DNA from: Mizuhopecten yessoensis
Taxonomy: Eukaryota
Direction of reading: 5' to 3'
Assembly (NCBI RefSeq): GCF_002113885.1
Contig: NW_018408394.1
Coordinates: forward strand, 321,851-380,068
Length of the DNA: 58,218 nt
Of the stretch, positions 3,001 to 56,418 are shown piece after piece. The notes beneath the pieces were generated by a model that worked only from the letters and a program-made list of their open reading frames with translations, did not search any database and had not been told where the DNA came from. Every line of letters starts with the position of its first letter. Position 1 is the stretch's first letter. A program made the translations under genes and the position numbers.

Positions 3001-6000
3001 ACACCCCAAACAATATATGGACACATACATCAATTTTCAATGTCAGCAAAGACATTTCACAATTCCGTTTGACCTGCCTGGATATTGAGTGATTGGTCAA
3101 TGGTCACAGACACAATGACACTTACCCATTCCTGTGTTAGCACTGACCACCAGCATGGCAAAGTCTGGGGCATGACCAGTCAGTCCAAATATAGTTGTCT
3201 TCAGATACTTGTGATGTCCAGCAAGGTCAATAAGAGTGATCAGCTTGGAAGAATTCTCACAAATTTCCTCTACAGTTCGAGATCCACTGTAGTTTACAAT
3301 CTGTAAGATGAAACAGCTACAATGAACTGGTGTAATACCTCTATTACATACATATAAATACAGGTATACAGTTAAAATCTAAATGTTTACAACCAGGTAA
3401 AACTGCTGAAAAATCACTGGTTACCCTATACACAACACTTAATAGGCCAGAACGTTAAGCATAAATTTTGCTCTTAGAGTAGACTTACCTCCCCTTTGCT
3501 ATTAAACCCGAGGATTTCATGGCTGATACTGGAGGTTCGCCCTGACTGAATTTCGTGTAGGTGCTGGAAAAGATTTAGTCTGGCACGACCCCTTCCATTG
3601 TCTAGCTCGCCCTGAGTAAGCACACCCAGCAGTGTACTCTTCCCAGCGTCTACATTCCCCAGTACTGCCAGTCGCAGATCAATGAACTGCAAGGCAAAGT
3701 AATTTAGTAATATAAAAATAAAAAACAAGCAAACTGTTAGAATAAACACAATTCACAGGTAAAACTCATCTTAAACCTCATATTGGTTTTAGCTTTTCAG
3801 AAAATCAACAACGTACTGTAAAATATTGTAATATACAAGGATTCAGAAAGTCAATAATAGTGGATAACACTCTGCAACTATACCAATCACAATGATACAA
3901 CACTTCCGATTTCTGAACTTTTCACATTGTAGGAATACATATAATATAGCTGCAGCTTCTAAATTATTATACAGGTTGAGAAATATATGATTTGTGCTAC
4001 CTGTTGGTCGTCTGGAACTTTTCTAACAAGGATTTCTAATGCCCGTTTGCGACATCCTGCACCTTCATCACTGTCTACCTGTCTCTCCCTCAGCACCGAG
4101 GTGGTGGCTCCTAACCTGTACATAGAGAGCAGGTAAATATCACAACACTGGTATGTTACATTACCAAGGTGATGGTCCTGAAAATGTACACAGAACAGGT
4201 AAATATTACAACACTGGTATGTTACATTACCAAGGTGATGGTCCTGAAAATGTACACGGAACAGGTAAATATCAAAATAGTGTTCGATTACACAACATCT
4301 AATTATATAAACTGTGGCCCTTAAAACTCAAGCATGTATAAAATGTTACATATACATTAAATGGTTATAACAAAAGGAAATGTTTGGACATATGTTAAGT
4401 CCAATCCACTTTCACAACAATGACAACTACTTTTCACTCAAATAGCATTTCTCCATGACTAGTTTTATTTGTGGGATTGTATTCTATAAGTTTCACAACT
4501 TCAAGTTATTTTTATATCATGTATATGAAAAGTATCAAATGAGGTCATTTAGAATCCTATATCTGCCACATGATGGCACTTTTGGCAGCGTTATTTTACC
4601 TTTCTGCCATTTTGTTGAGTGTCCTTACTGAAGCCTCAAGCTCCACATCTGTAAGTCCAACCAACATCCCATTGTCCTCCACACCTATTTCGTAGATAGC
4701 TTCCCCGTGTCCCTCCTCTAGTCTCCATTTCATCTGGGTTACCAGGTGTTCTAACCGAAAGTCTGATGGGTTGACTAGTTTTAGCTGTGAAATTATGACC
4801 CAATAAAATCTAGCTTACATCAATCACAAACTAGGAAATGAAAGTTACTGCAATTGGATTACCATTTTTCATCATTAAACTGACTTTTGTTTTTCAACCA
4901 TTACCCATTCAACTTTGCAATGCTCATATTATGTTAATTAAGAACTCGAAACAATGAGCCATTCAGATATTGGAATAGCTTTAAAAGCCTTTTAAGCAAA
5001 ATCCATGTTGGGAAAAAATTAAAACTGTATTTATAAAGGTTCCTATTAGCTTCCTGATGTTCAGCAGTACCAGAAGGGTTGATGGATGTGGGGTGTGTCA
5101 GTGGTTTTATTCTCATAAGTTTATCAACTTCCCACATGCTCATCATAAATGAAAATTTATATAACTATAACCAGTTTAATGTATCATGTTTAAATCAGTA
5201 AGTTTAACTACATCCGATGAACTGATATACCAGTAAGTTAATCTGTTATGTTCATATATAACATACTATTACTACATACACACTATGAGATAGGTAGGTC
5301 TGAGCATGTAAACACATACATATATATTAAATATACCACTCAAGTGAAATAATTCCAATGATACCTAAGCATTTCAGTTTAGGTCAGTTTTTACATTGGT
5401 GAATTGTGTGCATTTCAGTTACCCTAAATAAAATGCTTTACCATTATATATGTATATACCTTAGGTCCTATCTATTGTTTAGATACTACAATGTATATAC
5501 AATAGGTGACCGTATTTAGCATAAAAGATATACTGGTACATGTATACAGGTGTATACCATTTCATTACCAGGGTATACACATTGCAATAAGGTCAACTAA
5601 ATCAAGCATGAATTATTTATATGTAAAACTACACTTTGTTTAAAATGGATTTATTTTGAATGTTAGGTCAATCATAATACAAGAGGCCCAAGAGGGCCTG
5701 TATCGCTCACCTGAATATTTAAGCAGTCATAGCAAAATATTCTCATTAAATATTATATTGCACTAAAAATATTTCCCTCACAAACTTTGTTGGCTCCATC
5801 TGTTGAAACTACCAGCAAAATATTATTATAAGATTCTATGCTTTTTGATTCTTCTTCAGAAGTTGCTTGACATACTTTTCCCTGTGATCTTGTAAGTAGG
5901 TCAATGTCATTTTCCTTCTCAAATTGGTTAGCTCTATTCCAAAAAGCTACCAGCCAAATCTTATGAATCCATTCCTTTTAGTTCTCAAGAACAAATCCAT

Positions 6001-9000
6001 TAAAATGTTGTTGACCTCTGTGACCTCTAAAGTAGGTTGAGGTCATTTTCATTTGCAAACTTTGGTGAGCTCTATCCCGGGAAGTCACCAGCCAAATATT
6101 ATAATTTTATGCCTTTTAATTCTTCAGAAGAAGCTGTTTGAACTGTTTGACATATTTGAACGCTGTGACCTTGAAAGTAGGTCAAGGTCATTTTCATTCG
6201 CAAACTTTGTTTGGCTCTTTCCCAGGAAGCCACCTGCCAAATATTAAGATTTTATAACTACCAGTTCTTCAGAAGAAGTCGTTTAAAGTGTTTGACATAT
6301 CTGCCTCATGTGACCTTAAAAGAAGGTCAAGGTCATTTTCATTCTCAAACTTTGTTCGGCTCTTTCCTAGGAAGCTACAAGCCAAATATAGAGATTATAT
6401 ACCTTTCAGTTCTTCAGAAGAAGTCGTTTGAAGTGTCTGACACATTTGACTCCTGTGACCTTGAAAGAAGGTCAAGGTCATTTTCATTCTCAAACTTTGT
6501 CGGGCTCTATCCAAGGAAGCCATCAATCAAAAATAAAGATTCTATACCTTTCAGTTCTTCAGAAGAAGTCATTTGAAGCTTTTGACATATATGACCCCTG
6601 TGACCTTGAAAGTAGGTCAAACTAGTTTTCATTCTCAAACTTTGTTGGGCTCTATCCCAGGAAGCCACCAGCCAAATATAAAGATTATATACCTTTCAGT
6701 TCTTCAGAAGAAGTCGTTTGAAGTGTTTGACACATTTGACCCCTGTGACCTTGAAAGAAGGTCAAGGTAATTTTCATTCTCAAACTTTGTTGGGCTCCAT
6801 CCAAGGAAGCCATCAGCCAAATATGAAGATTCTATACCTTTTAATTCTTCAGAAGAAGTCGTTTGAAGTTTTTGACATATTTGACCCCTGTGACCTTGAA
6901 AGTAGGTCAAACTAATTTTCATTCTCAAACTTTGTTGGTCTCTATCCCAGGAAGCCACCAGCCAAATATAAAGATTCTATACCTTTCAGTTCTTCAGAAG
7001 AAGTCGTTTGAAGTGTTTGACACATTTGACCCCTGTGACCTTGAAAGTAGGTCAAGGTCATTTTCATTCTCAAACTTTGTTGGGCTCTATCCCAGGAAGC
7101 CATCAGCCAAATATGAAGATTCTATACCTTTTAGTTCTTTAGAAGAAGTCGTTTGAAGTTTTTGACATATTTGACCCCTGTGACCTTGAAAACAGGTCAA
7201 GGTCATTTTCGTTCTCAAACTTTGTAGGGCTCCTACCAACGAAGCTTTCAGCCAAATATCATGACTCTAGGCCTGTCCGTTCTTCAGAAGAAGTTGTTTA
7301 AAGGAAAAGTTGACGGACGAGGAAGGACGGACGGACGACGGACGCCGCGCCACGGCATAAGCTCACTTGGCACTTCGTGCCAGGTGAGCTAATAATGATA
7401 TATATATATGGGGCAAAGAAGTAATTCCAACAGTGTATATATATACATATAAGCTCATGAAAATATAATGTGTTGAAAATAGAATTATGCCTGCTGTGTT
7501 TACCTTAATGTCCTAAGCTGGTATCATATGTAATAGATGTACCATAATTGTTTTTATTATATGCCATACTGAGTGATATATTGTCTCCAATATATTATAT
7601 ATTTTCCAGCATTTTTATTTTCTAATACTTTTCAAGCGCTGATCTATATTCCATCACCTTTCACGTTCTTTATGAACCATGGTTATTTTTGTAGGATATC
7701 CACCAAGTACCATTTTACAGCCATAACACACATACACAGTGTATTAATTGGACAGAAAGAGCAGTAATACCTTATTACTAACAGTGACCTTGATCTTATT
7801 TTTTTCTACATGTAGGAACATGCAAAAGATGTGCATTGATTAGGTTGCCTTACAAGCTGTAGGGAATTTCCCTTTATCTCAGCAGTAGAGCATCGGGCTA
7901 GAGAGCCAAGGGTCGCGGGTTCGAGCCCCAGCGACGGCACTATCTTTATCACTATTCCTCGTCCTATTACAAGCATATTCATCTGCCTAATGGTGTACAT
8001 TTATCGCCATGTGGAATTTCAGTAATTTTTAAAAGACTTCTGGATTTTTATATTTTCTTCAAAATGTTAAGTCTGGGCAGACAGTGTGATGACTACCCTG
8101 TTTACCCTTACTCTAACCTCATCTTCTCTTTATCCAGCCTACAGTGTCTCCATTGAAAACTTTTAATTTCAAAGCCTTGTTTTAATTTTATTCATTTTAA
8201 TTCAATTTATTGATATATGGTATATGGACTTTGAGTGTTGTGAAACACTATACCTATTATCAAAGTAATATATGAACAATATGTGTGTGATATTAGTAAT
8301 TGATGTCTTAATTATGTATTGCATTTTATGTACCATGTATCTGTATGTGTATATGCGGTCATTATATGTTATTTTGTTATATACCCACCGACTCTAAATA
8401 AAATTTATCTTATCTTATCTTAATGTAATATATAGGTGTACAACATAAATAAAAGGTAACACAAAGTTGTTATTTTTTCTTTCTGTTGAGTACTATATAC
8501 TGTAAATCATATACTCACTTTATATTCTATGTTTCCTTCCTCGACCTATTGAAAAGTAAATCAAAATAAAATCATTACAATAGATATTCAAATCACATAC
8601 TGACATACTCCCTTTTATAATCATACAATTAAAAAAAATCAATCATATAGCTCTGTTTGATCAGTTTTTTATAAAATTATATGATCAGATAAGGCTGACT
8701 GATTCCCAATTGTGGCCAACGCATAAGCTTATATTACAAAGACTGCCATGAAAAAATAGGTGACCAAGTCCATCAAATAATCACACTTTATGATTTATTA
8801 GTATAAGAGGGTGCGATATCTAGTGGGTGCGATAATGTATCACATATATTCCAGAACCCGAGCACCTGTGCTTTGAACAAGATGATAATTAAAATCGAAA
8901 CGGCCCAAATCGAAAGAACACGTATACACAATACACATGAAAGAATAAATAAGACTAATTATTAAAAAACAATTCAGTCAGCAAAAAAAAAGGCACCACA

Positions 9001-21700: not shown

Positions 21701-24700
21701 CCCGTACCCTGTACCCCGTACCCTGTACCCTGTACCCCGTCCCATGTACCATGTACCATGTACCCCGTACCCCGTACCCCGTACCCCGTACCCAGTACCC
21801 CGTACCATGTACCCTGTACCCCGTTCCCTGTACTTTCACAGCACAATACATTCAATACGATGTGTATCTCGATACACATGTCTGTTTTAAAGTAAGTTTC
21901 ACAATACATGTGTTCAGATATTTTACAGAGATGTAATGAAAACTTTACGATGTCAATAGTAATTACAGTTTAAATATATCTGTGTTCGAGCTGTTGTACG
22001 TATTTTGTATCACTGCACAACGGATAACATTATTACTGGCGTATAAAAAAAAGAATAAGTGAACTCGCAAATCGAATTTATTAAGAATTGATTGATAATA
22101 CCCGAATTGTGAAGGTATTTCCCTATGCAGACAAACAAAAAGATTTGCTACAATACACAACAAAGTCTTGAACGATTCAATGAATTGTTTCAGTCTACGC
22201 TTTACCCTGTACCCCGTACCCTGTACCCTGTACCCCGTACCCTGTACCCCGTTTTGTTTTATTTGAACTGTATTTACATGTACTATTTACATCGTAAAGC
22301 TACATGTATTGTGAAACTAACTTTAAAGTCAGATATGTGTATCAAGATACATGTCGTATCGAATGTATTGTGCTGTGAAAATACAGTTTACGGGGTACAG
22401 GGTACGGGGTACAGGGTCCTAGAATCAGGGTTGCTAGGTTGGTTTTAACTCATCGGTGAAATAGTTTTGACAGCACACTTCATTCTTGGTCTGGTATCTT
22501 TTAGTTTTTGTTTAAAGATTAATGTTATAACTAAACAGTAGCGTGCCATAAATTTTGTTACGCCAAACGTTTATTTGCTAGCCCGCCGAATACAAGATGA
22601 CCATCATGTGTTCACTATGGTCGCACAATTACTAACTTTATAATAAAACACAGAGAGTAAATCGACCGTCATACACATCTTATAATTAACCTATTGTCCA
22701 AACTATTATCATAGTGTGTAATTAAATAAAATTTTGTTTAAATACTAATCTTACTAAATTACACGGTTTATCTTTTTCGATCTGTCCGTTTGTTGGAAAA
22801 GGACGTTTTTTCGTCCTTAACTATAGAAAATGATTTATATTTTAAGAAAGAAAATGGAGTCTATAAGATTACACAGATATTCTTCATGTTTAGATAGCAC
22901 AGAAAATGTCCGTTTGTATGAAAATTGTTGAACAATTAGTTTTTGACAGAGAGGATGCTCAACAGAATAATTTCTAATTATTTTCTTCATGTGGGTATGG
23001 ATTGTGAAAAGATTCATGTAGCACAACCAAAAAGTGTTCATAGGTGACGTTTTTCATCGAAACGTCACATATAAACACTTTTTTTTGTGCTGCATGCATC
23101 TTCTCACAGTACAATAAAATAGTACCAACAAAATAGGTTACTTACAGAAGATTTCGACTGACCAAATGTTTAACTGCGCTGACCATAGACGCTTCTTTTA
23201 CCTCGCTTTCCACATTTGCGAGTTTCCCGCCATTAGCTTCACAGACGGTCGCGGCGTCATTCCAAGAAACAGGTGTACTGATGAAGGTGAACACCGTGGA
23301 GGTCGTTTGCGGAATGTCACCAATAGCTGTAACGAGATTACCTTCTAATCACAAACAATCACTTTTAGGAGGTATTTCTTCTTAAGAAATATGCTTAGAT
23401 CAAGCAGGTATCAGGCGTGGCTTCGACACACGACATCGTAGCCCCTCGGAAAGCCCAAGTTTAAAATATCGCCCACCCGCTCTGCGATATACACAGAAAA
23501 TATAATTGTACATTGAAACCAGCCTTAACACTCAACTGTCCACTTGTTTATATATAATATCTGTCAATTAAAACTGTAATGCAATCACCTGCATACTCTT
23601 TTATATTATTATATTTCCCAATACCCTATCTAACTAACTCCATATAAACCATATAGACCTTAGCAGGTTTACCTGTGTACAAAGATTTATTGTCTATGAA
23701 CTACTGTCAACATATTACATAGGGATAAACTGCCTATAGTTACCACCTGTGAATAGTTCCCATATACCCTGTCTATTAAAACCAACTATTATGGCCGCAT
23801 TTTTCAGTCGCCTTAGAGAATTTTTGTGCTGTTTATCATTTTTGATAAATTAAAATGTTTAAATTTATTGAACAAGGAAAATCTGAATTCTAAAATATAC
23901 CAATGGGGTTGAATGAAGCAGTTAAATCGGTAATAATTTTGCAGAATTAAGCTGTTTTTACCGTTATCAATTGAGTAGAATTTAGAAATGATATTTTCCC
24001 GTTAATTAAACGATTTTGTTATTCATCAATCCTGGCATGACTAAGAGTTTATGACCATCCCGACACGTACTGTACTCACCAAACGTGATGTATACCCAGG
24101 CCACAATGCCCCCCCGACACGTACTGTACTCACCAAACGCGATGTATACCCAGGACACAATGACCAACCCGACACGTACTGTACTCACCAAACGGGATGT
24201 ATACCCAGGCCACAATGACCACCCAACACGTACTGTACTCACCAAACGTGATGTATCCCCAGGCCACAATGACCACCCCGACACGAACTATACTCACCAA
24301 ACGTGATGTATACCCAGGACACAATGACCACCCCAACACGTACTGTACTCACCAAACGTGATGTATGCCCAGGCCACAATCACCACCCCGGCACGTACTG
24401 TACTCACCAAACGAGATGTATACCCAGGCCACCATGACCACCCCGACACGAACTATACTCACCAAACGTGATGTATACCCAGGACACAATGACCACCCCG
24501 ACACGTACTGTACTCACCAAACGTGATGTATACCCAGGCCACAATGACCACCCCGACACGTACTGTACTCACCAAACGTGATGTATACCCAGGCCACAAT
24601 GACCACCCCGACACGTACTGTACTCACCAAACGTGATGTATACCCAGGCCACAATGACCACCCCGACACGTACTGTACTCACCAAACGTGATGTATACCC

Positions 24701-26063
24701 AGGCCACAATGACCACCCCGACACGTACTGTACTCACCAAACGTGATGTATACCCAGGCCACAATGACCACCCCGACACGTACTGTACTCACCAAACGTG
24801 ATGTATACCCAGGCCACAATGACCACCCCGACACGTACTGTACTCACCAAACGTGATGTATACCCAGGCCACAATGACCACCCCGACACGTACTGTACTC
24901 ACCAAACGTGATGTATACCCAGGCCACAATGACCACCCCGACACGTACTGTACTCACCAAACGTGATGTATACCCAGGCCACAATGACCACCCCGACACG
25001 TACTGTACTCACCAAACGTGATGTATACCCAGGCCACAATGACCACCCCGACACGTACTGTACTCACCAAACGTGATGTATACCCAGGCCACAATGACCA
25101 CCCCGACACGTACTGTACTCACCAAACGTGATGTATACCCAGGCCACAATGACCACCCCGACACGTACTGTACTCACCAAACGTGATGTATACCCAGGCC
25201 ACAATGACCACCCCGACACGTACTGTACTCACCAAACGTGATGTATACCCAGGCCACAATGACCACCCCGACACGTACTGTACTCACCAAACGTGATGTA
25301 TACCCAGGCCACAATGACCACCCCGACACGTACTGTACTCACCAAACGTGATGTATACCCAGGCCACAATGACCACCCCGACACGTACTGTACTCACCAA
25401 ACGTGATGTATACCCAGGCCACAATGACCACCCCGACACGTACTGTACTCACCAAACGTGATGTATACCCAGGCCACAATGACCACCCCGACACGTACTG
25501 TACTCACCAAACGTGATGTATACCCAGGCCACAATGACCACCCCGACACGTACTGTACTCACCAAACGTGATGTATACCCAGGCCACAATGACCACCCCG
25601 ACACGTACTGTACTCACCAAACGTGATGTATACCCAGGCCACAATGACCACCCCGACACGTACTGTACTCACCAAACGTGATGTATACCCAGGCCACAAT
25701 GACCACCCCGACACGTACTGTACTCACCAAACGTGATGTATACCCAGGCCACAATGACCACCCCGACACGTACTGTACTCACCAAACGTGATGTATACCC
25801 AGGCCACAATGACCACCCCGACACGTACTGTACTCACCAAACGTGATGTATACCCAGGCCACAATGACCACCCCGACACGTACTGTACTCACCAAACGTG
25901 ATGTATACCCAGGCCACCATGACCACCCCGACACGTACTGTACTCACCAAACGTGATGTATACCCAGGCCACAATGACCATCCCGACACGTACTGTACTC
26001 ACCAAACGTGATGTATACCCAGGCCACAATGACCAACACAACACGCACTAATTTGCCGAACAT
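15770..26063 (-). CDS. Uncharacterised type I membrane protein: signal peptide + C-type lectin-like domain + PAN/apple-like Cys domain + Ser/Thr stalk + TM (409 aa, 5 exons)
   Basis: Exons (minus): 26003-26063 (MFGKLVRVVLVIVAWVYITF), 23146-23326 (SWNDAATVCEANGGKLANVES), 19420-19637 (LWIGLHQ..YVWSD..W..C..W..C..LCE), 16642-16887 (CQTKC..CWAVTF..CYL), 15770-16293 (TM GIGAAGLVILIIVIGGIVLLDF, stop TAA). All GT-AG with matching phases (1,2,1,1); total 1230 nt open. Confidence 0.88.
16950..17283. mobile_element. MITE with 5-bp TSD ATATT (lectin gene intron 3)
   Basis: Termini CAGGGGCG... / ...CGCCCCTG; ATATT at 16945-16949 and 17284-17288. Confidence 0.85.
17850..18870 (+). mobile_element. Penelope-like retroelement remnant
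   Basis: Degenerate fragments VLGKGLN..PVEEFVAA (~18000-18070) and H.IDW..IKEAICI..MDKG (~18580-18700) resemble Penelope N-terminal and GIY-YIG C-terminal motifs. Confidence 0.5.
19759..20596. repeat. 28-bp minisatellite, about 30 copies (lectin gene intron 2)
   Basis: Unit CTGTATGTGTAGACAGCTT(C/A)TCACTACA. Confidence 0.96.
21130..21430 (+). mobile_element. LINE ORF2 C-terminal remnant
   Basis: HFIIKCNRYSDLRSKYIKKYY..SMYKFVQLL resembles the C-terminal region downstream of the zinc knuckle in non-LTR retrotransposons. Confidence 0.45.
21578..22417. mobile_element. Foldback/MITE with long inverted arms and 7-bp (GTACCCY)n terminal arrays
   Basis: ~21830-21910 is the reverse complement of ~22300-22385; (GTACCC[C/T])n on the left, (GGGTAC[A/G])n on the right. 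Confidence 0.8.
24052..26035 (-). repeat. 55-bp minisatellite (about 36 copies) made of the 3' end of lectin-gene exon 1 plus its splice donor
   Basis: Minus-strand unit TGGTCATTGTGGCCTGGGTATACATCACGTTTG|GTGAGTACAGTACGTGTCGGGG; the first copy is contiguous with ATG TTC GGC AAA at 26063. Confidence 0.95.
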
Positions 26064-30581: not shown

Positions 30582-33500
30582 ATGGCGGATGGTAAGCATT
30601 TTGAGGTTTTGCTTCGGTCGAAAGTTCATAATATATACTAATCATCGTAACTTGTATCGATATTTGGAAAGCAGAGTTGTCGACAAAGATATTCTGGTTA
30701 ACAGGGAATATTTAAGTGTTTTACAGACGACTAAATAGCGGAATAGAGATCACATAATTTTAAAAATAGAAGACTGTCGTCTGACGGTGTTTGGCGCGCC
30801 GGTGATCTGCTGATATTGTTACAGTCCAAGTCACATTTGTCGTTGGCATCCCATGATTCTTTACCTCGGACTAGATGACAAGCATGTACACATTTTCCTT
30901 TTGTAGTTTATTCACAAAACTACTTCTGATTGTGAACGTTAAACGTGCAAAGAAAAAATTCACAAGTCAACAATAACATGCTAATTATAAACCGATGACG
31001 AGACGACATATCATGACATCATTTCCTATGTTCACGTAAACACTAAATATATAAGGTTTAATAATTAAATTAAAAATATGTCACCGTCTCATTGGCCGTG
31101 TATTATTTCCGCTTCTGTTACATAGTTTCTTAGTGAAAAATGTAAACTGTGAACCTTTTTAAAATTATCATCAATACTTGGGAGGAAATGTACAGTCTGG
31201 AACACATTGGAATAAAGCTGCACTGTCTAGGATCCTCGTAGATAACATTATCACAACACTGGCAAATTATTCAGACTTGTAGGGGATATTTTAGATTAGT
31301 TCTTTTGTACAAAAATATTCATCAAATATTTGCTGTCACATTATGCATACAATATCCTGGTTCACTCCTCCGTTCTCCTACACAGACGATAGTGAAAATA
31401 CACACCGTTACCGAATGGAATAATCTTTGGTTTCTGCCAATACTGTGGACGGAAGCCAGCACAGTAAACACTTTCTATTTGATTTTCATTGTATTTCCCT
31501 GTGACTTTGGCCTTTTCTGTTTATATCCAAAATTGTTTTTTTTTTTTTTTTTTTTTTTGNGGTGACTGTGTGTGTGTGTGGTAATAAAACTAAAAATAGT
31601 ATATTTATGATTGCTTCTGTTAAATGGGATCCTGGCCAGATGATGTTATCATATACTTGCTTTTGTTTTGTGTCTTAACTTCTAAGCATGTATACATATG
31701 GCCTTTTGTCAAATCAGGTTCAATCAGACGGTTGCTTCATCAGTATGTGTGTGTCTGTGTTGTGGTTTTCAGAGCATATCTCAGTGACTGTTTCACGAAT
31801 GGGCATCAAACTGAAATCATGGAAAGGCGATGCGTCACATTAAAAAAACTAGCCCAATTTGTCCTCTGACTGTTGATCTTGACCTGTAGTAATGAAACAC
31901 AGTGTTGAAGGGGTTTCCAAAGCATATATTGACTACTATTTTAAGCATGTACTTCAGCTTTTGTGTGAATGTACTCAATAATCAATGAATATGTCTGGTT
32001 GTAAAATTTGATTCAACCTCATACAGTCTTCAGTTTAAAACAGTTTTTTTTTCTTTATTTCAGATCAAGCAAATATAGGTGGTTCAGTGGCTGGAGAGGC
32101 AATTATGGAACAAACAACTACACCAACACCATCAGAGGTTCCAGAAAATGTTCAAGTAAGTGTCATCAAACATGACAGGACTGTATGCCAAATTTTCAAT
32201 TTCAATCAGAACTAAAATGAAAAACATTTTGTAGTTCTGATGACAATATAGGGCTGTTACAAATGCCCAGGTATAGGGCAATGTTAACATGGATCTATTA
32301 CCAGGTAAGAATGTGTTTACGCAAATACCTGTCACAGTAAGCAAGGCAACCACTTGCAGTAACATATATTGTTTCATATAAAAGTGCAAATCAAAAGTCA
32401 TGTATATTGACATCCTGCCTAATCCAACCAATTTGTTGCATCAGATTAGAAAAGTACAGTGTTAGACTATCCGATAGACATTCCCAAATCATTATGGTAT
32501 TTTTCTTCAACTTACAAAATGGACTTTAAATTCCAATCAAAATGAACATATTGATAATCAATTTAAAAAAAGTTTCCTTCTCCTCCAAAGTGGGTTTATA
32601 GAAATATGTTATCCTTATTTTCTTATAAAAAATTGAAAGGGGAACAAACTGTTGGTGCCTGGATCATTGAACTTTTCCAAAAAGCACAAAGTTCATGTTT
32701 AATGTTTAAACATTTATGAAGGCAGTGTTTTTTTTGTTATGTTGTTACCTAATTCCGGGATATTTCACACTCCGGCACCGGAGTCTTTCCCGTAAACGGA
32801 AGAAGAAGAAGAATTAGAGAAATTGAAAATCTGTTTTATTTAGCATTTCAAAAATATGGGTTTTGGGGTATATATTTATGCAAGGGCAAGATTTTGAATT
32901 CTCAATACTCAGTTGCAAAATATAGACTTTTGTTAGCCCTTTATTTGAACATTCAGCTGAATATGATGTTCACAACATAGTTTCACTAGTATCAGATGAA
33001 TTTTTGCCATTGATTACAGTAGTCTTGGTCACTTGAAAACTGTCACATATACGTATACATATAAATAATGTTATATTATATGTATTGTTTCTTCCAGAAA
33101 ATCATCACCAGTGAAAAAGATATTGACATGTCAGCAAAGCGTCCCCGTGTAGATCTACAATCACTCCCAACAAGAGCATACCTCGACCAAACAGTTGTTC
33201 CCATATTACTAAGTGGAATGTCTGTTTTAGCAAAAGAACGGTAAATAACAACCACTTTGTTGTGTGACTGTTCACTTTTCTAAAGAAATTTGAAAAAAAC
33301 ATACTAAACTACTGTCGCCTCCTACAGTGTCCCCCTAGACTGTTTTAACAACAAGTTGCTACAATTCTTGTATAATTTACACTATGCTGTTCTATGAATG
33401 TTATATTCCAAACATACATAGGAAATAAAATTGAATATAATAAGTAAGCTATTCATAAATCATAAATGCTCAGATAAAAAAAAAAAATCTGGCAAGAAAA

Positions 33501-34011
33501 CTGACAATTGAACATGTTAGGTGATATATCTGTTATAGTAGAGGGAAATGATTGGGGTTCCGACTTCGAACCAGGGACCCTCCAAACTCTAGATGGATGC
33601 TCTACTATTTGAGCTACCTGGTCGCTGGTGTTCAACCCAACCAAGTCAAATTCTGTTACTCTCCTCCCTCCTTTCTTAGTCTTCTCCCCCAAGACATCAC
33701 TATTTACAACCCAGGTTTAGGTATCCTCTTGCCAAGCATTCATCCAGTACTTGAAACCGGCACAAAATGTTTAAATAGCGGGAAATGCACAGCCAGACTG
33801 GGGTTCGAACCAGGGACCTTGTAAGCTACCTGGTCGCCGACAATCGACACAGTCCAGTTCCATTACATGTTGTTGTTCCTAATTAATATAAACTGTCAGA
33901 AAAGATATTGTATTTTACTGTAATTGTTATATTTTTCTTTCCAGGCCGCCTAATCCAATCGAATACCTTGCTGCCTACCTTTTAAAAAATAAGAACCAGT
34001 TTGATCAGTGA
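30582..34011 (+). CDS. DPY30: Protein dpy-30 homolog (COMPASS/SET1-MLL subunit), 103 aa, 4 exons
   Basis: Exons 30582-30591, 32064-32155, 33098-33240, 33945-34011; GT-AG, phases consistent. Translation ..[47 protein letters not shown].. is the Dpy-30 motif. AATAAA at 34459-34464. Confidence 0.95.
33555..33840 (-). mobile_element. tRNA-derived SINE fragments (two heads) in DPY30 intron 3
   Basis: TTCGAACCAGGGACC (B-box-like on minus) twice and GAGCTACCTGGTC (A-box-like on minus). Confidence 0.5.
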
Positions 34012-36212: not shown

Positions 36213-38170
36213 ACAAGAGGCCCAAGGGCCTTAGCGGTCACCTGAGTTATATCATGGGGACTGGTAGCTTTATTTTATTGTTTAGATGTGATGTGGAAAT
36301 CAGCATGTAAACTAAGTGAAATACAATACTTGTCATGTCATCAAAGGATAAAAATTTGAAAATATTGGTAAATGTTCCCTTTGGGGCCCTGCCCTAGCCC
36401 CTGGGGATGGGGCAGGAATCCCAATTTTACAAAGTAATACTCTCATTCACCAAAGATGATTCTGACTAAGTTTGAGTAATTTTCTGCTGAAAATGGATAA
36501 AATATATACCCAAAAGTGTTATTTCCCTATATAAACTATAGTAAACTTTACCCCCTCCCCAAGGGAGAACGGATAGCTCGGGGGTCCTGAAATTTACAAT
36601 TTAAGTAAAGCCCCTGATGATCTTTCTTTCCACGTAGAGAAAATCACTGTAGTACCTCTGAGTCTGGAGAAGAAGATTTTTGAAATATTGATTAATTTTC
36701 CCTTTGGGGCCCCGCCCTGGCCCCAGGGGTCGGGGTAGGAATCTCAATTTTACAATTTGAAACCATCTACCTCCAAGGATAATTCTCACCAAGTAAAAAT
36801 AATTTCCTACAGAAAGTTGTCAAAATATACCCAAAAGTGTTATTTCCCTATATAAACTATAGTAAACTTTACCCCCTCCCCAAGGGAGAACGGATAGCTC
36901 GGGGGTCCTGAAATTTACAATTTAAGTAAAGCCCCTGATGATCTTTCTTTCCACGTAGAGAAAATCACTGTAGTACCTCTGAGTCTGGAGAAGAAGATTT
37001 TTGAAATATTGATTAATTTTCCCTTTGGGGCCCCGCCCTGGCCCCAGGGGTCGGGGTAGGAATCTCAATTTTACAATTTGAAACCATCTACCTCCAAGGA
37101 TAATTCTCACCAAGTAAAAATAATTTCCTACAGAAAGTTGTCAAAATATACCCAAAAGTGTTATTTCCCTATATAAACTATAGTAAACTTTACCCCCTCC
37201 CCAAGGGAGAACGGATAGCTCGGGGGTCCTGAAATTTACAATTTAAGTAAAGCCCCTGATGATCTTTCTTTCCACGTAGAGAAAATCACTGTAGTACCTC
37301 TGAGTCTGGAGAAGAAGATTTTTGAAATATTGATTAATTTTCCCTTTGGGGCCCCGCCCTGGCCCCAGGGGTCGGGGTAGGAATCTCAATTTTACAATTT
37401 GAAACCATCTACCTCCAAGGATAATTCTCACCAAGTAAAAATAATTTCCTACAGAAAGTTGTCAAAATATACCCAAAAGTGTTATTTCCCTATATAAACT
37501 ATAGTAAACTTTACCCCCTCCCCAAGGGAGAACAAATAGCTTGGGGGTCCTGAAATTTATAATTTAAGTAAAGCCCCTGATGATCTTTCTTTCCATATAA
37601 AGAAAATGACAGTAGTACCTCTCAGCCTGGGGAAGAAGATTTTTGAAATATTGGTTAATTTTCCCTTTGGGGCCCCACCCTGGCCCCAGGGGTTGGGGTA
37701 GGAATCTCAATTTTACAATTTGAAACCATCTTCCTCCAAGAATAATTCTCACCATGTAAAAATAATTTCCTACATAAAGTTGTCAAAATATACACAAAAG
37801 TGTTATTTCCCTATATAAACTATAGTAAAATTTACCCCCTCCCCAAGGGAGAACAGATAGCTCGGGGGTCCTAAAATTTACAATTTGAGTAAAGCCCCTG
37901 ATGATATTTCTTTCCATGTAGAGAAAATGAATACAGTACCTCTAAATCTGGAGAAGAAGATTTTTGAAATATTGGTTAATTTTCCCTTTGGGGCCTGGCC
38001 CTGGCCCTGGCCCCAGGGGTTGGGGTAGGAATCCCAATTTTACAATTTTGTAGCCTCATCTACCAAGGATGATTCTGACCAAGTTTGAAAAAAATCCATC
38101 CACTGGTTCTTGAGAGAGGGTTGAAAATGTATAAAGTTTACGCACGACGAACCACGATGGACGGACCTCT
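36213..38170 (-). mobile_element. Helentron/HINE-type element carrying a 321-bp satellite (about 5 copies)
   Basis: Starts ACAAGAGGCCCAAGGGCCTTAGCGGTCACCTG, the same end type as the 5679 element. Period 321 bp (ORF copies at 36601, 36922, 37243, 37564). GACG/GGAC remnant at ~38145-38167; the other terminus is not recognisable. Confidence 0.8.
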
Positions 38171-41070: not shown

Positions 41071-43140
41071 TCAAACAAATTTTGTGGCTATTGATAAAAT
41101 CTTGGTGAAGTCCCCACTGACACCCCTCAGATGTGAGGGTAAGGGGACACGGATCCTGGTCCCTATTGGTGCACCTGTTTCATCAATTAACACTGCATTG
41201 TTACTGTCAAACCTTGGCTGCATTGCCTTAGGTTTCTGAACACATCCAACGATGTATGCCTTTTTCCTTTCTTTTTGGATTGACAACAACACTTTGTCTC
41301 CAACACGTGCTACCTGATTCCTGGTGTAAACCTGAAGAATTTTCACCTTTTTGCCGCTCTCTGATGCCTTTTTTCCTATCAAGCTGTTATCGACTATTTT
41401 CACAGTGGACAATTTCCGCAGCTCACTCAAGGTTTTTGTGGTACTGCATATAAAGAAAACACTTATTAGTGGTTGAAATAAATCTTGCAATCTTAATTAA
41501 GAAAATTCAACATAAACATTTTCATACTTGGGCAAGTTCACCATTAGCTTTGACACCTAATCTTGCAAATTTTACATAGAGAGTTTGCAAAGCATTTAAT
41601 TCATTAGTAACATAAGTTATATGCAAGTAGCATGGGTTTATATTACCTGTGAGGATTTGTATATTCACTGTACAGATTTGTATATTATCTGTGAGGATTT
41701 GTATATTATCTGTGAGAATTTGTATATTACCTGTACAGATTTGTATATAACATGTGAGGATTTGTATATTATCTGAGAAGATATGTATATTACCTGTACA
41801 GATTTGTATATTATCTGTGAGGATTTGTATAGTACCTGTGTAGATTTGTATAGTACCTGTGTAATAGTACCTGTGTAGATTTGTATATATACCTGTGTAG
41901 ATTTCTACGTTACCTGTAAGGATTTGTATATTACCTGTAAGGGTTTTGTATATTACCTGTACAGATTTGTACAGTATATGACATGTGAGGATTTGTATGT
42001 TACCTGTATGTAAGAATTTGTATATTACATCTGAGGATTTGTATATTACCTGTGAGACTTTGTAATTTACTTGCAATTTAATGGGTGAAAGGCAAATCTG
42101 TCTGTTGTTGCCAGTCAACACTTGTGTAGTCAATGGGAATTAAAATCCTTAAAGCAAGTGTGTTACTGTTTATATCTATATACTGGAATTGCAATGTAGA
42201 AAATCATAGCAGTGATTAACCAATGAAATACATTTTCTTTTGCAGTATGATAATATAAACACAAAATTATCATAAAGTCCAATATTTGTGACCTTATAAC
42301 TCGGGCAACTGTGATTATACTATACTTATTGTAACACAGGCAGCTGTGATTACACTAGACTTATTGTAACACAGACAGCTGTCAGATTATATATACTAGA
42401 CCTATTGTAACACAGGCAGCTGTCAGATTATACTAGACTTATTGTAACACAGGCAGCTGTGATTATTCTAGACTTTTTGTAACACAGGCAGCTGTCAGAT
42501 TATACAAGACTTATTGTAACACAGACAGCTGTCAGATTATACTAGACTTATTGTACCACAGGCAGCTGTGATTATACTAGACTTATTGTAACACAGGCAG
42601 CTATGATTATTCTAGACTTTTTGTAACACAGGCAGCTGTCAGATTATACAAGACTTATTGTAACACAGGCAGCTGTCAAGATTATACTAGACTTATTGTA
42701 ACACAGGCAGCTGTCAGATTATACAAGACTTATTGTAACACAGGCAGCTGTCAAGATTATACTAGACTTATTGTAACACAGGCAGCTGTCAGATTATACT
42801 AGACTTATTGTAACACAGGCAGCTGTGATTATACTAGACTTATTGTAACACAGGCAGCTGTCAGATTATACTAGACTTATTGTAGCACAGGCAGCTGTGA
42901 TTATACTAGAATTAATCTACACACAAGGGATCAGAGATCAGAATTTATTTAAAAAATTAAAACTATCAAACTTGACTGATTGACGAGTAGCTTTCTACCT
43001 GTGGAAGGGTACCTTATCCTTAGCTACCCAATTACAATCACAAACACATACCTAAAGTTACGATGAATGGTACACTGGATACACCTGGCTGTGTTTGGGT
43101 GTACAAGCTCTCCAACCAGTCTTGAACTGATGATATGCAT
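41071..43140 (-). CDS. MRPL14: Mitochondrial ribosomal protein L14 (uL14m), 153 aa, 2 coding exons
   Basis: Exon 43052-43140 (MHIISSRLVGELVHPNTARCIQCTIHRNFS, presequence-like) and exon 41071-41443 (KIVDNS..VGDKVLLSI..PRFDSNNAVLIDETGAPIGTRIRVPLP..KILSIATKFV). Phase-2 GT-AG intron. AATAAA (minus) at 41046-41051. Confidence 0.94.
41640..42060. repeat. Degenerate 21-bp tandem repeat in the MRPL14 intron
   Basis: Unit approximately GATTTGTATATTACCTGTGAG. Confidence 0.85.
42300..42910. repeat. ~35-37-bp tandem repeat in the MRPL14 intron
   Basis: Unit approximately TAGACTTATTGTAACACAGGCAGCTGT(CA)GATTATAC. Confidence 0.92.
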
Positions 43141-49312: not shown

Positions 49313-52300
49313 ATGAAGAAAAAGAAGACTGTCATTTATGCAATATTTATTGCCATTGGTGTATATTTGTTTGTGCAAATTAGTTACTTTAATGAGGCAT
49401 ATAGCCCTCTCCAAGTTTTGTCTGATGCTCGGAGTGAAGCAAAGCGTCTTCTTCGGTTTATTACCCTACAACATTTCCAATGTAACTCCACCATACAAAT
49501 CTCAAATAATACCTACTGGCCCATCTGCACAGAGAAGGATGGAGGAGTCAACATTGACACCAGGGGCAGGAAACTAGCATATTCTATAGGGCAAGTATAT
49601 TCTATTAATACATGCTTGTTATTGAAATTATACATATTGCTTTTATTGTGAAAAAACAAGAATTCTAGAAATATAGTTTATTGTTTTATATCAGGATCCT
49701 ATGACTAGGATCTAGCACACATATCAAGTATTTTAAAAGAATTTAGCTCACCTGGTACAAAGCAGTACCATGGTGAACTTTTGTGAGCTTCGTCCATCTG
49801 TTGTCTGTCGTCTCATTCATCAATACCTCCTCCAAAACTACGGAGCAGAATTCAACTAAATTGCGGCTGAAGACCCCTTTGCCCATGAAGATTTTTATAC
49901 TTAAATAAAGGGGCTGACTTTTCTGGGATTGAGGAATGGAGTCAAGACAGATCAATTACCTGATCTAGCATTATTTTCAATCAAACTACAAGAAAGTTTT
50001 CAACCAAAACATGACAGTAGCAACTTTAGCCCATGGGATAAAATGTAAAGGGGTCAAATTTGCAGATTTGATTAATATCTCTTTTCATAATAAAGACAAG
50101 GTTTCTATTCAATTGTTGTGTTAATTAGCATTACAAGCCTTTGAGGATAGAAAGTTATACAAATAAAGTGGCCAATATTTCTGGGATCTGTCCTACCAAA
50201 CTACTGGGCACATTTCAGCCTTACTTCCAAAATAGCTAGGTGGGTGCAGTGATGCAAGGAACTGGGGGCCTCTTAATTTGTCATCCTTTACTTTTAAAAG
50301 AAAATATATTAACCAAAAATTTCTTCTGATGATGATTTAAGAGTGAATATTGCTGTTCTATATATACTGAAATTAAGTATGAATACATTTATATGCGGTG
50401 ACGTTTATTAAGATTTAGAACCCATGTCTTTTACTATTAGATTCAACTTTGTTAATATGGAATAAGTGATTTGTTCATATGTTTATCTTTTCTTTTCTTT
50501 TTTTCAGACCTAAAGGGGATTTAGAATTTGAAAGGATTGTTGCAAAAAATTTGTCTTTTAATCTGTACATGTTCGATACAGACCTGACAACAGTAGACTT
50601 TTCTCTGCGCTCTAACAACACACGGTCCATGCACATATCTGTTGTACCGAATGATCCTGCTGACTTTGTACGCAACTCTTATGATACACAGACAATAAAT
50701 AATATAATGTTGAGCCTTGGCCATACCTATATAGACATCCTAAAGATGGACCACTTTGTAGACAGCAGTCAGTCACATGATGTCCTGTACTTCATGATCA
50801 AAGATGACCTTCTGTCGCGAGTCGGACAACTCCACATCGCCCTCCATATTGGTATGTAACAGACCAGCTGCTGCTAGCATATATTATATAGTGCACACAA
50901 CAGCAGACTAGCATGTTACTGGATATAAAGTATAAAATGTAGCAGTCTCATTTGGTTATAATTTACAAACATGATACTGCTGAAGCCTCACATACTCTTT
51001 TTCATACATGGATTTTACTTTTACAACTGCTAGTCTTATGAATGTTTTGGGTATGTTTTGCTACTAGACTCATCCAATATCGTAAACACCTTGCTAAAAT
51101 AATAATCTAACTGGTATGTTATATATATTAGTACCTCAAGACATTGAAATCTAATTGGAATTCAGGCTTTACCTATAAGTTTTGTTTGTTGTTGAATTCT
51201 GTCTTACCTACAAGTTTTGTTTTTTGTTGAGTTCCGTCTTTACCTACAAGTTTTGTTTTTGTTGTATTCTGCCTTTCCTACGAGTTTCGTTTGTTGTTGA
51301 ATTCTGTCTTACCTACAAGTTTTGTTTGTTGTTGAATTCTGTCTTACCTACAAGTTTTGTTTGTTGTTGAATTCTGCCTTACCTACAAGTTTTGTTTGTT
51401 GTTGAATTCTGCCTTACCTACAAGTTTTGTTTNNNNNNNNNNNNNNNNNNNNNNNNNNNNNNNNNNNNNNNNNNNNNNNNNNNNNNNNNNNNNNNNNNNN
51501 NNNNNNNNNNNNNNNNNNNNNNNNNNNNNNNNNNNNNNNNNNNNNNNNNNNNNNNNNNNNNNNNNNNNNNNNNNNNNNNNNNNNNNNNNNNNNNNNNNNN
51601 NNNNNNNNNNNNNNNNNNNNNNNNNNNNNNNNNNNNNNNNNNNNNNNNNNNNNNNNNNNNNNNNNNNNNNNNNNNNNNNNNNNNNNNNNNNNNNNNNNNN
51701 NNNNNNNNNNNNNNNNNNNNNNNNNNNNNNNNNCAGGGATCCTGGACCAAGAGCCTTCATACTCTACCCTCCAGCCCAGGATGGTAAGTGTGTTCACTAA
51801 TCCTGTGTTTATTACATGTCATGGGCCAGGGATCCTTGACCAAGAGCCTTCATACTCTACCCTCCAGCCCAGGATGGTAAGTGTGTTCACTAATCCTGTG
51901 TTTATTACATGTCATGGGTCAGGGATCCTGGACCAAGAGCCTTCATATTCTACCCTCCAGCCCAGGATGGTAAGTGTGTTCACTAATCCTGATGTTTTCA
52001 TTGAAAAATCATACTCTCCTCCCATCCAAGATAATATTGGGTAAGTTCATTCCCTGACCTTTGGAATCTAATGCTATAGGCCTCTACCCAAATTATTAAG
52101 TAAGTTCAGTTGCCCTTCAGCCTTCAAACTCTATCCACTGGTCCAGGACATTAAGTATACTGCTTTGTCCAGATTGTCATATATATGCTCTACTATCCTA
52201 TCTAGGACATTTTGTATGTTGCTTTGCTCAAGGACAAGGCTCTTATCTAGGGAAAGGGTATTCCTAGGAACATCATTTGATGTGACTCATCTTAAAACAC

Positions 52301-53855
52301 TGTAGTTTGATTTGCAATCTTACAGTGGAGCCCCCTCTTTCATTGAAGGTTATCAATCAGTTTCTTTAAAATGTTTCACTTCAATGAAACTGGGAATACA
52401 TGTCATATTTGTGGGCTACTTTCAAAGTTTGGGTTAAGATAAAACCACAGAATAAAAGAGCTGCAGTTATTTTTATTTAGAATTACAAATGTTACAACCA
52501 TACTAACCCTATGTACTGTGTCTACTACTCACATGTTAAATATTTCCTGTAACCAGGATCAGAGGAGTCTGAAGCAGAGCGTCTTGTGGACTACCTGGAC
52601 AATGAAGAGGCATCCTGCTCAGATAATTTGGACATTGGACTGACTAACACTTTGCCACTGGACATCTGTTTAAATGAAGGATACCTGCATAAGCCTTGTA
52701 ACATCATTATTGTACGGTAAGTCCTAACTGGAGTTTGTAGGCATAGTGTAACACTCCTAAAATATAGTTCATGTAACAAGTTAAGACATAACATTGTTGA
52801 GGTGTTATCGGTCATGACAGGTGTATGTAAATAGGAACAAGTGAGATGACACCTGATTGGATTGTGTTGTAGGAACAAAGGTACAAGCTTTACAGTGTCC
52901 AGTCTGTCCAAAGGTCAGTGTCATGCTGTGGTGCTGGAGACTCAACCATCTACTTACAACTTTAACATCCATGAATACTTCGTAAACGTTAAAGGGTAAG
53001 AAATTTGCATTAGTAAGTCAAAAACCTGGATATGTGATCAGTCAGTAGTGCACTGTGTTACAGGTACAGGAATGTTCTGCATTGGAAACCTGATGATTTC
53101 GATAGATATTATATTACAACTGACATGTTTTGTGGTAGGTCCCTGTTGCCCTCGATGACCCACCACACCACACTGATTGAGGCGTTGGACAAGCACCTCC
53201 ACACAGGCAGTTCTAACATCCTGTACCTGGACATGCCTGAGCTATTGTGGGACCTAATCGGACCTCTCCTGGATTCTGGACATGTTCAGGTACCCCATCT
53301 TGTGCTAAGGGTCTCATCATATCAGTGAAATCAAGATGTCATCACGGTTAAGTTGTAAATACAAGTACTTTTAAAGGAGCAGTTAACTTTTTGTATAAAA
53401 AACAAAAACTTCTAATTATCTGTATTTATCATTTGGTATTTTTATTGCCTCAATATCAGATGTAGTTCTAAGGTTGTCTAATTAATTCTAACACTATAAG
53501 AACCAACATTTGATGGAATGGAATGGCTTAGTAAATCTATCTACTGCTTATGTCAATATCAGTGATGTTTAAGTCCAACTTAAATAATATTTTCAATCTT
53601 TTATTTTCATTTCAGAGTGTAAATCAACTGATAGTAGATGTTGATGTTTGGAATGAACACAGTGTAAAGCCCTCACATAATATCCGTCGGAGATTCAGTG
53701 AACTCAAAAGAATTGGAGCCTACGGGTTCCAGATTTACAAGTCCAAAACTCTGCTAGATACTCACACATTACACTTCCAGAGTAACCTTAAGACAAACAA
53801 AAAGTGTTGTCACAGAGTGAACTTTGTACGTACCAAGCATGTCAGTATTACATAA
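49313..53855 (+). CDS. METTL24-like (Methyltransf_22/FkbM-related) protein with N-terminal signal anchor and two tandem domain copies; one exon partly in the assembly gap
   Basis: Exons 49313-49590 (GC donor), 50508-50851, [gap]..51783 (..RDPGPRAFILYPPAQD), 52557-52716, 52873-52995, 53139-53289, 53616-53855; phases consistent. Motifs: WPIC..AYSIG, FE..MFD, LGHTYIDILKMD, RVGQLHIALH, CVYYMSWV. The second copy has ILYLD..W..LLDSG..VNQLIVD..YGF..CCHRVNFV. Confidence 0.8.
49743..50277 (+). mobile_element. Degenerate HINE-type element in the METTL24-like intron
   Basis: TTAGCTCACCTGGTAC..GTACCATGGTGAACT start, degenerate (GTC)n tract, end ..GGGGGCCTCTT. Confidence 0.6.
51168..51432. repeat. 35-bp tandem repeat running into the gap
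   Basis: Unit GTTGAATTCTGTCTTACCTACAAGTTTTGTTTGTT. Confidence 0.9.
51433..51733. other. Assembly gap (301 N) likely hiding part of a METTL24-like exon
   Basis: N run flanked by tandem arrays on both sides. Confidence 0.98.
51734..51990 (+). repeat. 93-bp tandem repeat (at least 3 copies) made of a METTL24-like exon 3' end plus GTAAGT donor
   Basis: CAGGGATCC at 51734, 51827 and 51920; the unit translates CVYYMSWVRDPGPRAFILYPPAQD G|gtaagt. Confidence 0.9.
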
Positions 53856-55778: not shown

Positions 55779-56418
55779 CAGTTATTCTGATCGGGGCTAT
55801 CTCACAGGAAGTAAGTTTTGTGTGACGTGTGCTGCATGCCACATTTGTTCTGATCGGAGCTATCTCACAGGAAGTAAGTTTTGTGTGACGTGTGCTGACA
55901 TGCTACAGTTGTTCTGATCGGAGCTATCTCACAGGAAGTAAGTTTTGTGTGACGTGTGCTGACATACTACAGTTATTCTGATCGGGGCTATCTCACAGGA
56001 AGTAAGTTTTGTGTGACATGTGCTGCATGCCACAGTTGTTCTGATCGGAGCTATCTCACAGGAAGTAAGTTTTGTGTGACGTGTGCTGCAGGCCAAAGTT
56101 GTTCTGATCGGAGCTATCTCACAGGAAGTAAGTTTTGTGTGACGTGCGCTGCATGCCACATTTGTCCTGATCGGAGCTATCTCACAGGAAGTAAGTTTTG
56201 TGTGACGTGTGCTGCATGCCACATTTGTTCTGATCGGAGCTATCTCACAGGAAGTAAGATTTGTGTGACGTGTGCTGCATGCCACAGTTGTTCTGATTGG
56301 AGCTATCTCACAGGAAGTAAGTTTTGTAAGACAGGTGCTGACATGCTACAGTTGTTCTGATTGGAGCTATCTCGCAGGAAGTAAGTTTTGTGTGACGTGT
56401 GCTGACATGCTACAGTTG
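55779..56418. repeat. 63/64-bp tandem repeat, about 10 copies
   Basis: Unit TTCTGATCGGAGCTATCTCACAGGAAGTAAGTTTTGTGTGACGTGTGCTGCATGCCACAGTTG. Confidence 0.95.

What the first reader, a model, noticed from the sequence alone, without database searches (positions are those of the whole stretch)
51734..51990. Second independent exon-end plus donor tandem amplification, in the METTL24-like gene
Seen: the 93-bp unit encodes CVYYMSWVRDPGPRAFILYPPAQD then G|GTAAGT, in the phase (1) needed to join the next exon at 52557 (GA TCA GAG..). CVYYMSWV resembles the C-terminal motif of the domain. Read-through past the donor hits TAA (GGT AAG TGT GTT CAC TAA), and copy 2 carries its own TGA, so the extra donors are non-productive. 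The array runs into the N gap, so the true copy number and the real exon start are hidden. The architecture is the same as the lectin-gene array, in an unrelated gene.
Basis: partly seen in the sequence, partly recalled or inferred. Interest (0 to 1): 0.7.

Follow-up and report, generated by a model that had tools for sequence, protein, structure and literature searches.

The report
Scallop splice-donor "mirage" repeat, three copies
In a scallop gene for a predicted methyltransferase-fold protein, the last 78 bases of exon 3 and its splice signal are present three times in a row, but assembled transcripts contain the piece only once and match the first copy, so it is likely a harmless example of a repeat type already known from lancelet and human genes.

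Summary
The array is real: a 93-bp unit (78 nt exon end + 15 nt intron) at 51734-51997, three identical donors. The gap is resolved: the start of exon 3 lies on an orphan 228-bp contig (G000:C18857) that overlaps copy 1, and its length plus three more 35-bp units equals the 301 N exactly, so the first visible donor (51784) is likely the authentic one. DNA contigs of 3 of 3 runs (three studies) show entry, core, junction and exit pieces of a tandem repeat, so it is no gap-edge artefact. Spliced contigs of 4 of 4 runs carry a 204-nt exon 3 with one unit; the deepest matches copy 1, not copies 2 or 3. Minor use of distal donors is not excluded. A 7-bp microhomology at the unit edges points to local duplication. 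This is a 'mirage' minisatellite (amphioxus; human F7 intron 7). Recurrence (lectin gene, two kinesin exons nearby) is within a rough chance expectation in this array-rich genome. The scan found the same kind before, on other DNA of this genome and others. By-product: the public protein model lacks 42 residues. 'METTL24-like' holds only as a fold resemblance.

The parts
51734..51783 (+). Visible 3' end of authentic exon 3 (204 nt in all, phase 1-1; 154 nt lie in the gap)
   Evidence: L002 overlaps 51734-51750 exactly; 126 letters between exon 2 and the unit start in 4 of 4 runs; gap arithmetic
51784..51789 (+). Donor 1 (GTAAGT), likely the authentic one
   Evidence: X12 transcript has C at the copy-diagnostic site and otherwise no difference from copy 3, i.e. 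copy-1 type; X11 joint placed from 51782
51799..51891 (+). Extra copy 2 (78 nt exon end + 15 nt intron), donor at 51877; V>A and G>stop changes
51892..51984 (+). Extra copy 3, donor at 51970; L>F change that no other of 32 aligned relatives has
51985..51991 (+). 7-bp microhomology AATCCTG shared by the exon (unit start) and the intron (unit end)
   Evidence: DNA core contigs are 100 = 93 + 7 letters, 51892-51991
51433..51733 (.). Assembly gap, 301 N; likely holds the rest of the 35-bp array, the acceptor and 154 nt of exon 3
51169..51432 (+). 35-bp array x 7.5 at the 3' end of intron 2, continuing through the gap to about 15 nt before the exon 3 acceptor; does not include the acceptor itself
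49313..49590 (+). Coding exon 1 (N-terminal hydrophobic helix); intron 1 begins GCAAGT
50508..50851 (+). Exon 2
52557..52716 (+). Exon 4, the acceptor partner of the array's donor
52873..53855 (+). Exons 5-7 (52873-52995, 53139-53289, 53616-53855 to the stop)
24051..26049 (-). Comparison array: 55-bp unit x 36.4 spanning the first coding exon's donor of a C-type lectin gene

Best explanation
The array is a three-donor tandem repeat of the exon 3 / intron 3 boundary, likely made by local duplication between two 7-bp AATCCTG matches 93 bases apart, and likely harmless because splicing uses the first donor. Shown: the repeat, its edges, its presence in other DNA runs, the whole exon 3, and spliced contigs with a single unit. 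Inferred: (1) slippage or microhomology-mediated repair made copy 2, and slippage or unequal crossing-over made copy 3; (2) the original exon and its donor stay intact at the 5' end, so the extra copies become plain intron sequence; (3) the most upstream donor wins, as in human F7 intron 7; (4) any transcript using donor 2 or 3 would carry a stop 76 or 169 nt before the junction and would likely be removed by nonsense-mediated decay; (5) the extra copies drift freely. Such arrays recur because this genome is full of minisatellites and those that happen to cross a donor are tolerated. The two arrays on either side of exon 3 likely broke the assembly and left the exon on an orphan contig.
For: Array and edges. 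Locus-specific unit: 4 matches in G000, all at this gene. Gap: L002 joins the 35-bp array to copy 1, 196 + 3 x 35 = 301. DNA: 3 of 3 runs give an entry contig with exon letters as loose end, a 100-letter core, a 53-letter junction contig and an exit contig; 53 is the length expected for all 31-letter words across a junction with 7 shared letters (my arithmetic). RNA: 4 of 4 runs have 126 letters between 50851 and 51892 and join to 52556; X12, X13, X15 hold one unit in one unbroken contig; X12 reads C at 51948 and shows no contig over the intron part 51877-51891 although it keeps an intron contig of depth 2.6 beside 123. All three substitutions among copies lie in the extra copies and all change the protein. 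31 of 32 aligned relatives have the 42-residue segment and none but the public model P0001 has F at L269. Precedent: PMC3087553, PMC3902484, PMC1557585. Chance.
Against: Only contigs were available, which drop rare forms, so minor distal-donor isoforms are not excluded, least of all ones removed by decay. DNA runs X1 and X2 also read C at 51948 in their core contig, so the letter does not by itself name the donor in animals whose copies are all of that type; the one-unit layout of the transcript is the stronger argument. The RNA animals are not shown to carry the array. X11 broke into pieces here (9 of 20 records fit two places) and has intron cover, so it cannot be read cleanly. The junction contig has only 23 letters on each side, below the tool's 31-letter rule for a bridge. 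Gap lengths are estimates; one extra 93-bp unit would give 289 instead of 301. The chance model rests on my own counts of introns and a weak exon scorer, and two of the four donor arrays seen sit on consecutive exons of one kinesin gene.
Confidence: 0.86

Rival explanations
1. The extra donors are used at a low or regulated rate and send part of the transcripts to nonsense-mediated decay, so copy number would tune expression of the gene.
For: All three donors have the same local sequence; the stop would lie 76 or 169 nt before the junction; junction-to-flank depth differs among DNA runs (19.9/16.2, 8.2/7.7, 22.7/8.6), a weak hint of length variation; a reference title in PMC2630376 links the CBS 31-bp VNTR to lower enzyme activity (title only).
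Against: No junction-bearing contig in X12; unbroken one-unit contigs in X12, X13, X15; in F7 the downstream sites stayed unused even when in frame or strengthened; amphioxus mirages give regular mRNA; the copies are decaying.
Confidence: 0.08
2. Splice boundaries are hotspots for the birth of tandem arrays in this genome (for example through transcription- or splicing-linked DNA lesions), so the recurrence reflects a bias and not chance.
For: Four donor-spanning arrays in about 378 kb of one contig: this one, the lectin one and two on consecutive kinesin exons; two more arrays end 8 and about 15 nt before acceptors.
Against: Expected by random placement: 0.33-0.66 in the window and about 0.6-1.8 (all 118 arrays, 20-60 donors) in the 320 kb beside it against 2 and 2 seen. 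Exon-like flanks before GTRAG: 3 of 31 in arrays against 78 of 607 outside. The donor sits at very different places in the units (78, about 40, 5 and 10 exon bases). This rival concerns frequency and is compatible with the copies being silent.
Confidence: 0.15
3. The copies are an assembly artefact at the gap edge.
For: The array touches a 301-N gap.
Against: The tandem junction and a core deeper than its flanks occur in 3 of 3 DNA runs from three studies; the copies carry distinct substitutions. One run could be the assembly's own source, but not all three studies need be.
Confidence: 0.02

Closest known systems
Amphioxus 'mirage' minisatellites (Adh3, globins BflGb6 and BflGb9, troponin C, PGBD5); PMC3087553 and PMC3902484, passages read
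   Same: Tandem duplication spanning an exon-intron boundary, splice signal kept in the copies, unit within the reported 10-160 bp, regular mRNA; BflGb9 is a duplicate of an exon's 3' boundary, as here.
   Different: A bivalve gene; only three donors; length and somatic instability not shown here.
Human F7 intron 7 37-bp VNTR; PMC1557585, abstract and Discussion read
   Same: First unit spans the exon-intron junction; identical downstream donors; only the most upstream one is used.
   Different: Five to nine sites of 37 bp there, three of 93 bp here; there the silence of the sites was tested by mutation, here it is seen only in assembled contigs; here every distal donor brings a stop, in F7 two do not.
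Human CBS 31-bp VNTR c.1444_1467+7(16_21); PMC2630376, passages read
   Same: By its name the unit covers 24 exon and 7 intron bases, so it also spans a donor.
   Different: 16-21 units, proven polymorphic; a cited title links it to lower activity (primary paper not read); no such effect is shown here.
METTL24 / Methyltransf_22 (PF13383) proteins, for the host gene
   Same: N-terminal hydrophobic helix and predicted SAM-methyltransferase fold; weak PF13383 hits in 5 of 32 relatives.
   Different: Below the Pfam cut-off; about 500 residues with two predicted alpha/beta domains; a conserved mollusc, annelid and nemertean family named 'uncharacterized' by its sources. Orthology to human METTL24 was not tested.

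Membership tests
Mirage minisatellite | Head-to-tail repeat whose unit spans an exon-intron boundary | tested here: met
   78 exon + 15 intron bases per unit, boundary fixed by spliced contigs
Mirage minisatellite | Copies keep the splice signal | tested here: met
   ATG|GTAAGTGTG in 3 of 3 copies
Mirage minisatellite | Local origin from the gene's own sequence, not a dispersed element | tested here: met
   4 matches in G000, all at this gene (DNA search is a lower bound); 7-bp edge homology
Mirage minisatellite | Regular mRNA is made | tested here: met
   204-nt exon 3 joined to exon 4 in 4 of 4 runs
Mirage minisatellite | Length instability between alleles or cells | tested here: inconclusive
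   Contig depths differ among three DNA runs, but the tool states depth is no copy number
F7 intron 7-type donor VNTR | The most upstream donor is the one used | tested here: met
   One unit per transcript, copy-1 letters in X12; copy 1 is contiguous with the exon
F7 intron 7-type donor VNTR | Downstream donors are silent yet functional when the first is removed | not testable with these tools
   Needs raw reads and minigene mutants; only contigs were served
METTL24 / PF13383 | Pfam gathering score 22.4 | tested here: not met
   P0002 12.8 bits, P0001 no hit; 5 of 32 members at E <= 0.1, best 0.0088
METTL24 / PF13383 | Class I SAM-methyltransferase fold | tested here: met
   AlphaFold model pLDDT 80.5; the listed Foldseek hits are methyltransferases, best E 9.6e-6, TM by target 0.23-0.49; a prediction, with modest scores
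METTL24 / PF13383 | Orthology to vertebrate METTL24 and an intact SAM-binding site | not tested
   No vertebrate protein among 38 hits; no tree built; no PDB sequence match at E <= 1

The most novel reading that the evidence does not exclude
Scallop splice boundaries are preferred birthplaces of minisatellites (four donor arrays in 378 kb, two on consecutive exons of one kinesin gene, exon 3 here walled in by arrays on both sides), and the number of spare donors, which varies between animals, tunes gene output by leaking transcripts into nonsense-mediated decay.
Probability: 0.08. Interest if true: 0.55.

Novelty: new member of a known kind. Interest (0 to 1): 0.13.

Why it matters
Little as a single case: it adds a small bivalve example to a described repeat class. 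It gives a natural test of 5' splice-site choice among identical donors in a mollusc, and a clear case of how such repeats break short-read assemblies and corrupt gene models (the public protein lacks 42 conserved residues and takes its exon end from a non-coding copy). It would matter more if an annotated genome-wide count showed arrays forming at splice sites more often than chance, or if copy number changed expression.

Tried and rejected
Older degenerate copy at about 52009-52046 (a fourth GTAAGT at 52041): local alignment score 43, reached by 1038 of 5000 shuffles and 247 of 1154 window tiles; rejected. Extra 93-bp units in the gap: fit 289 against 301, while three 35-bp units fit exactly; not favoured, not excluded. 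The 35-bp array as an acceptor mirage: its unit stops about 15 nt short of the real AG; rejected. Dispersed or transposon-borne unit: no match elsewhere. Kinship of the four donor-array units: 5 of 6 pairs no better than shuffles, one pair (48-bp kinesin unit and this unit) reached by 20 of 500, not significant over six pairs. Enrichment test in 320 kb: no excess, but the scorer is weak (13 of 19 training exons reach 2 when left out; copy 3 of this array scores 0.9), only GTRAG donors and TRF arrays of period >= 20 and >= 80% match were used, and acceptor arrays were not tested. Single-exon Pfam scan gave nothing useful for the host gene; PDB sequence search found nothing. Literature searches for scallop or mollusc cases (listings only) showed no paper describing such arrays in bivalves; the library lacks most subscription journals, and PMC6905558 (abalone) was listed but not read. 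Searches (METTL24; splice-donor VNTRs) were seen as listings only and added nothing; PMC10078293 (passages) gave no direct parallel. No supplementary files were read.

Full report
Observation. Tandem Repeats Finder gives an array at 51734-51997, period 93, 2.8 copies, 97% matches, right after 301 N at 51433-51733. The three donors (51784, 51877, 51970) have the same context. The copies differ at three sites only: copy 2 has V>A and G>stop, copy 3 has L>F.

Host gene. The window is the end of contig C5067 of G000. Exon 2 finds a 457-residue protein labelled Mizuhopecten yessoensis (P0001) and a 499-residue Pecten maximus protein (P0002). P0002 has 42 residues that P0001 lacks, just before the repeated part. 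Of 32 aligned relatives (32 of the 38 hits; six left out, among them shorter and near-redundant ones) only P0001 lacks that segment and only P0001 has F at position 269, so the public model likely skipped the gap and took its exon end from copy 3. The family is conserved in molluscs, annelids and a nemertean and is unnamed. PF13383 is hit below its cut-off (12.8 against 22.4 bits; 5 of 32 members at E <= 0.1). The AlphaFold model (pLDDT 80.5) matches SAM-dependent methyltransferases with modest scores, and CVYYMSWV forms the predicted strand 252-260 that closes the first domain. 'METTL24-like' is therefore a fair resemblance, not a tested membership.

The gap. A search of G000 with the orthologous exon found it on a 228-bp orphan contig, C18857 (L002). 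L002 starts with the tail of the 35-bp array seen left of the gap, then an acceptor, 154 nt of exon, and a 17-letter exact overlap with 51734-51750. Its length plus three further 35-bp units is exactly 301; one extra 93-bp unit would give 289. So copy 1 is likely the true end of a 204-nt exon 3, the donor at 51784 is the authentic one, and there are likely three donors in all. Exon 3 is walled in by arrays on both sides, which likely explains the assembly break.

Is it real? Contigs of three DNA-type runs from three studies (X1, X2, X7) were laid on 51877-52700. Each gives the four pieces of a tandem repeat in a word graph: an entry contig with exon letters as a loose end before 51892, a 100-letter core (93 + 7), a 53-letter contig across the copy-to-copy junction, and an exit contig. 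The junction contig has 23 letters on each side, short of the tool's 31-letter rule, but 53 is the length that a junction with 7 shared letters gives with 31-letter words. Junction-to-exit depth is 1.2, 1.1 and 2.6, a weak hint that unit number varies; depth is not a copy number. One run could be the assembly's source. The unit matches nowhere else in G000 (4 matches, all here).

Which donor is used? Four runs from four studies (X12 on record as RNA; X11, X13, X15 guessed, but spliced) all have 126 letters between exon 2 and the unit start and all join to exon 4. X12, X13 and X15 hold one unit in one unbroken contig. X12 reads C at 51948 and otherwise equals copy 3, which is the copy-1 type; X13 and X15 have one unlisted difference from copy 3; X11's joint was placed at copy 1. 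X12 shows no contig over the intron part 51877-51891 while keeping an intron contig of depth 2.6 beside 123. Limits: contigs drop rare forms; X1 and X2 also read C in their core, so the letter alone is not decisive; the RNA animals are not shown to carry the array; X11 is fragmented and has intron cover.

Mechanism. The unit starts at AATCCTG in the exon and the intron has AATCCTG 93 bases further on. This suggests a microhomology-driven duplication and one further expansion (inferred). The original exon and donor remain first in line, so the rest is intron. Use of donor 2 or 3 would give exons of 297 or 390 nt with a stop 76 or 169 nt before the junction, a likely target of nonsense-mediated decay by the 50-55-nt rule (my knowledge, from mammals). 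All three substitutions fall in the extra copies and all would change the protein, as expected for released sequence, though three is a small number.

Recurrence. The lectin-gene array (24051-26049, minus strand) repeats the end of a signal-peptide-like exon and its donor 36 times, with its own imperfect edge homology and an unrelated unit. In 320 kb beside the window I found two more, on consecutive exons of a kinesin gene. But arrays are very common: 14.7 kb of the 58.2-kb window and 118 arrays, 66 kb, in the 320 kb. Random placement of founder units gives 0.33-0.66 donor-spanning arrays in the window (24-28 introns by my count) and 0.6-1.8 in the 320 kb for 20-60 donors, 0.3-1.0 if only periods up to 120 are counted (I estimate about 35 or more donors from the excess of exon-like flanks over four control motifs). 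Two and two were seen; the window was chosen for the feature. Exon-like flanks were no more common before GTRAG in arrays (3 of 31) than outside (78 of 607). The test is rough and does not exclude a modest excess.

Known kinds. Tandem repeats that span an exon-intron boundary are the 'mirages' of amphioxus, with units of 10-160 bp, regular splicing and unstable length (PMC3087553, passages; PMC3902484, passage). The human F7 intron 7 VNTR has five to nine identical donors of which only the most upstream is used (PMC1557585, abstract and Discussion). The CBS 31-bp VNTR spans a donor by its nomenclature (PMC2630376, passages). Three searches (listings only) showed no paper on such arrays in bivalves. 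Earlier notes of this scan report the same kind in other genes of this genome and in other genomes; they are unchecked notes, one of which led me to the lancelet papers; I found the F7 paper before seeing them.

Verdict. A real, small, likely neutral mirage: new member of a known kind, interest 0.13.

Noticed in passing
G000:C18857:1-228 (L002); window 51433-51733: Orphan contig that fills the gap: tail of the 35-bp array, acceptor and first 154 nt of exon 3.
   Followed up: yes
P0001 against window 50851-51969: The public protein model lacks 42 conserved residues and uses copy 3 (F instead of L); an annotation error caused by the gap.
   Followed up: yes
window 51169-51432 +: 35-bp array made from the last part of intron 2 (a CTTAC branch-point-like word and a T-rich tract, with a weak AAG), ending about 15 nt before the acceptor; the real acceptor is used in 4 of 4 runs.
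   Followed up: partly
L022:8913-9024 + and L023:2183-4405 + (about 20 kb before the window): Two donor-spanning arrays (48 bp x 2.3; 74 bp x about 30) on consecutive exons of a kinesin motor gene (PF00225); units carry only about 5 and 10 exon bases.
   Followed up: partly
window 24051-26049 -: Lectin-gene donor array, 55 bp x 36.4, with imperfect exon/intron edge homology of about 20 bases; not tested with RNA.
   Followed up: partly
window 4126-4274: 66-bp array x 2.3 ending about 8 nt before an acceptor of the minus-strand GTP_EFTU-domain gene (GTPBP2-like by recall).
   Followed up: partly
window 49591: Intron 1 of the host gene begins with GC (GG|GCAAGT), a GC-AG intron by the protein alignment and contig positions.
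   Followed up: partly
window 55779-56418 +: 63-bp array x 10 whose unit holds CAG, 29 bases and GTAAGT, a mini-exon-like layout; no gene assigned.
   Followed up: no
L020:2446-2994 -: 50-bp array x 11 starting at a possible 17-nt micro-exon with GTAAGT; not verified.
   Followed up: no
window 4126, 10338, 38545, 41639: Several unrelated array units contain ACAGGT on one strand; not tested for enrichment.
   Followed up: no
window 36355-38084 and L006:3404-4391; window 5880-7303 and L012:828-1258: Arrays of period 321 and 145 recur elsewhere on the contig, so they are likely dispersed, element-borne repeats.
   Followed up: no
window 30584-34010 + and 41146-41445 -: Dpy-30 gene and a ribosomal protein L14 exon (Pfam).
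   Followed up: partly
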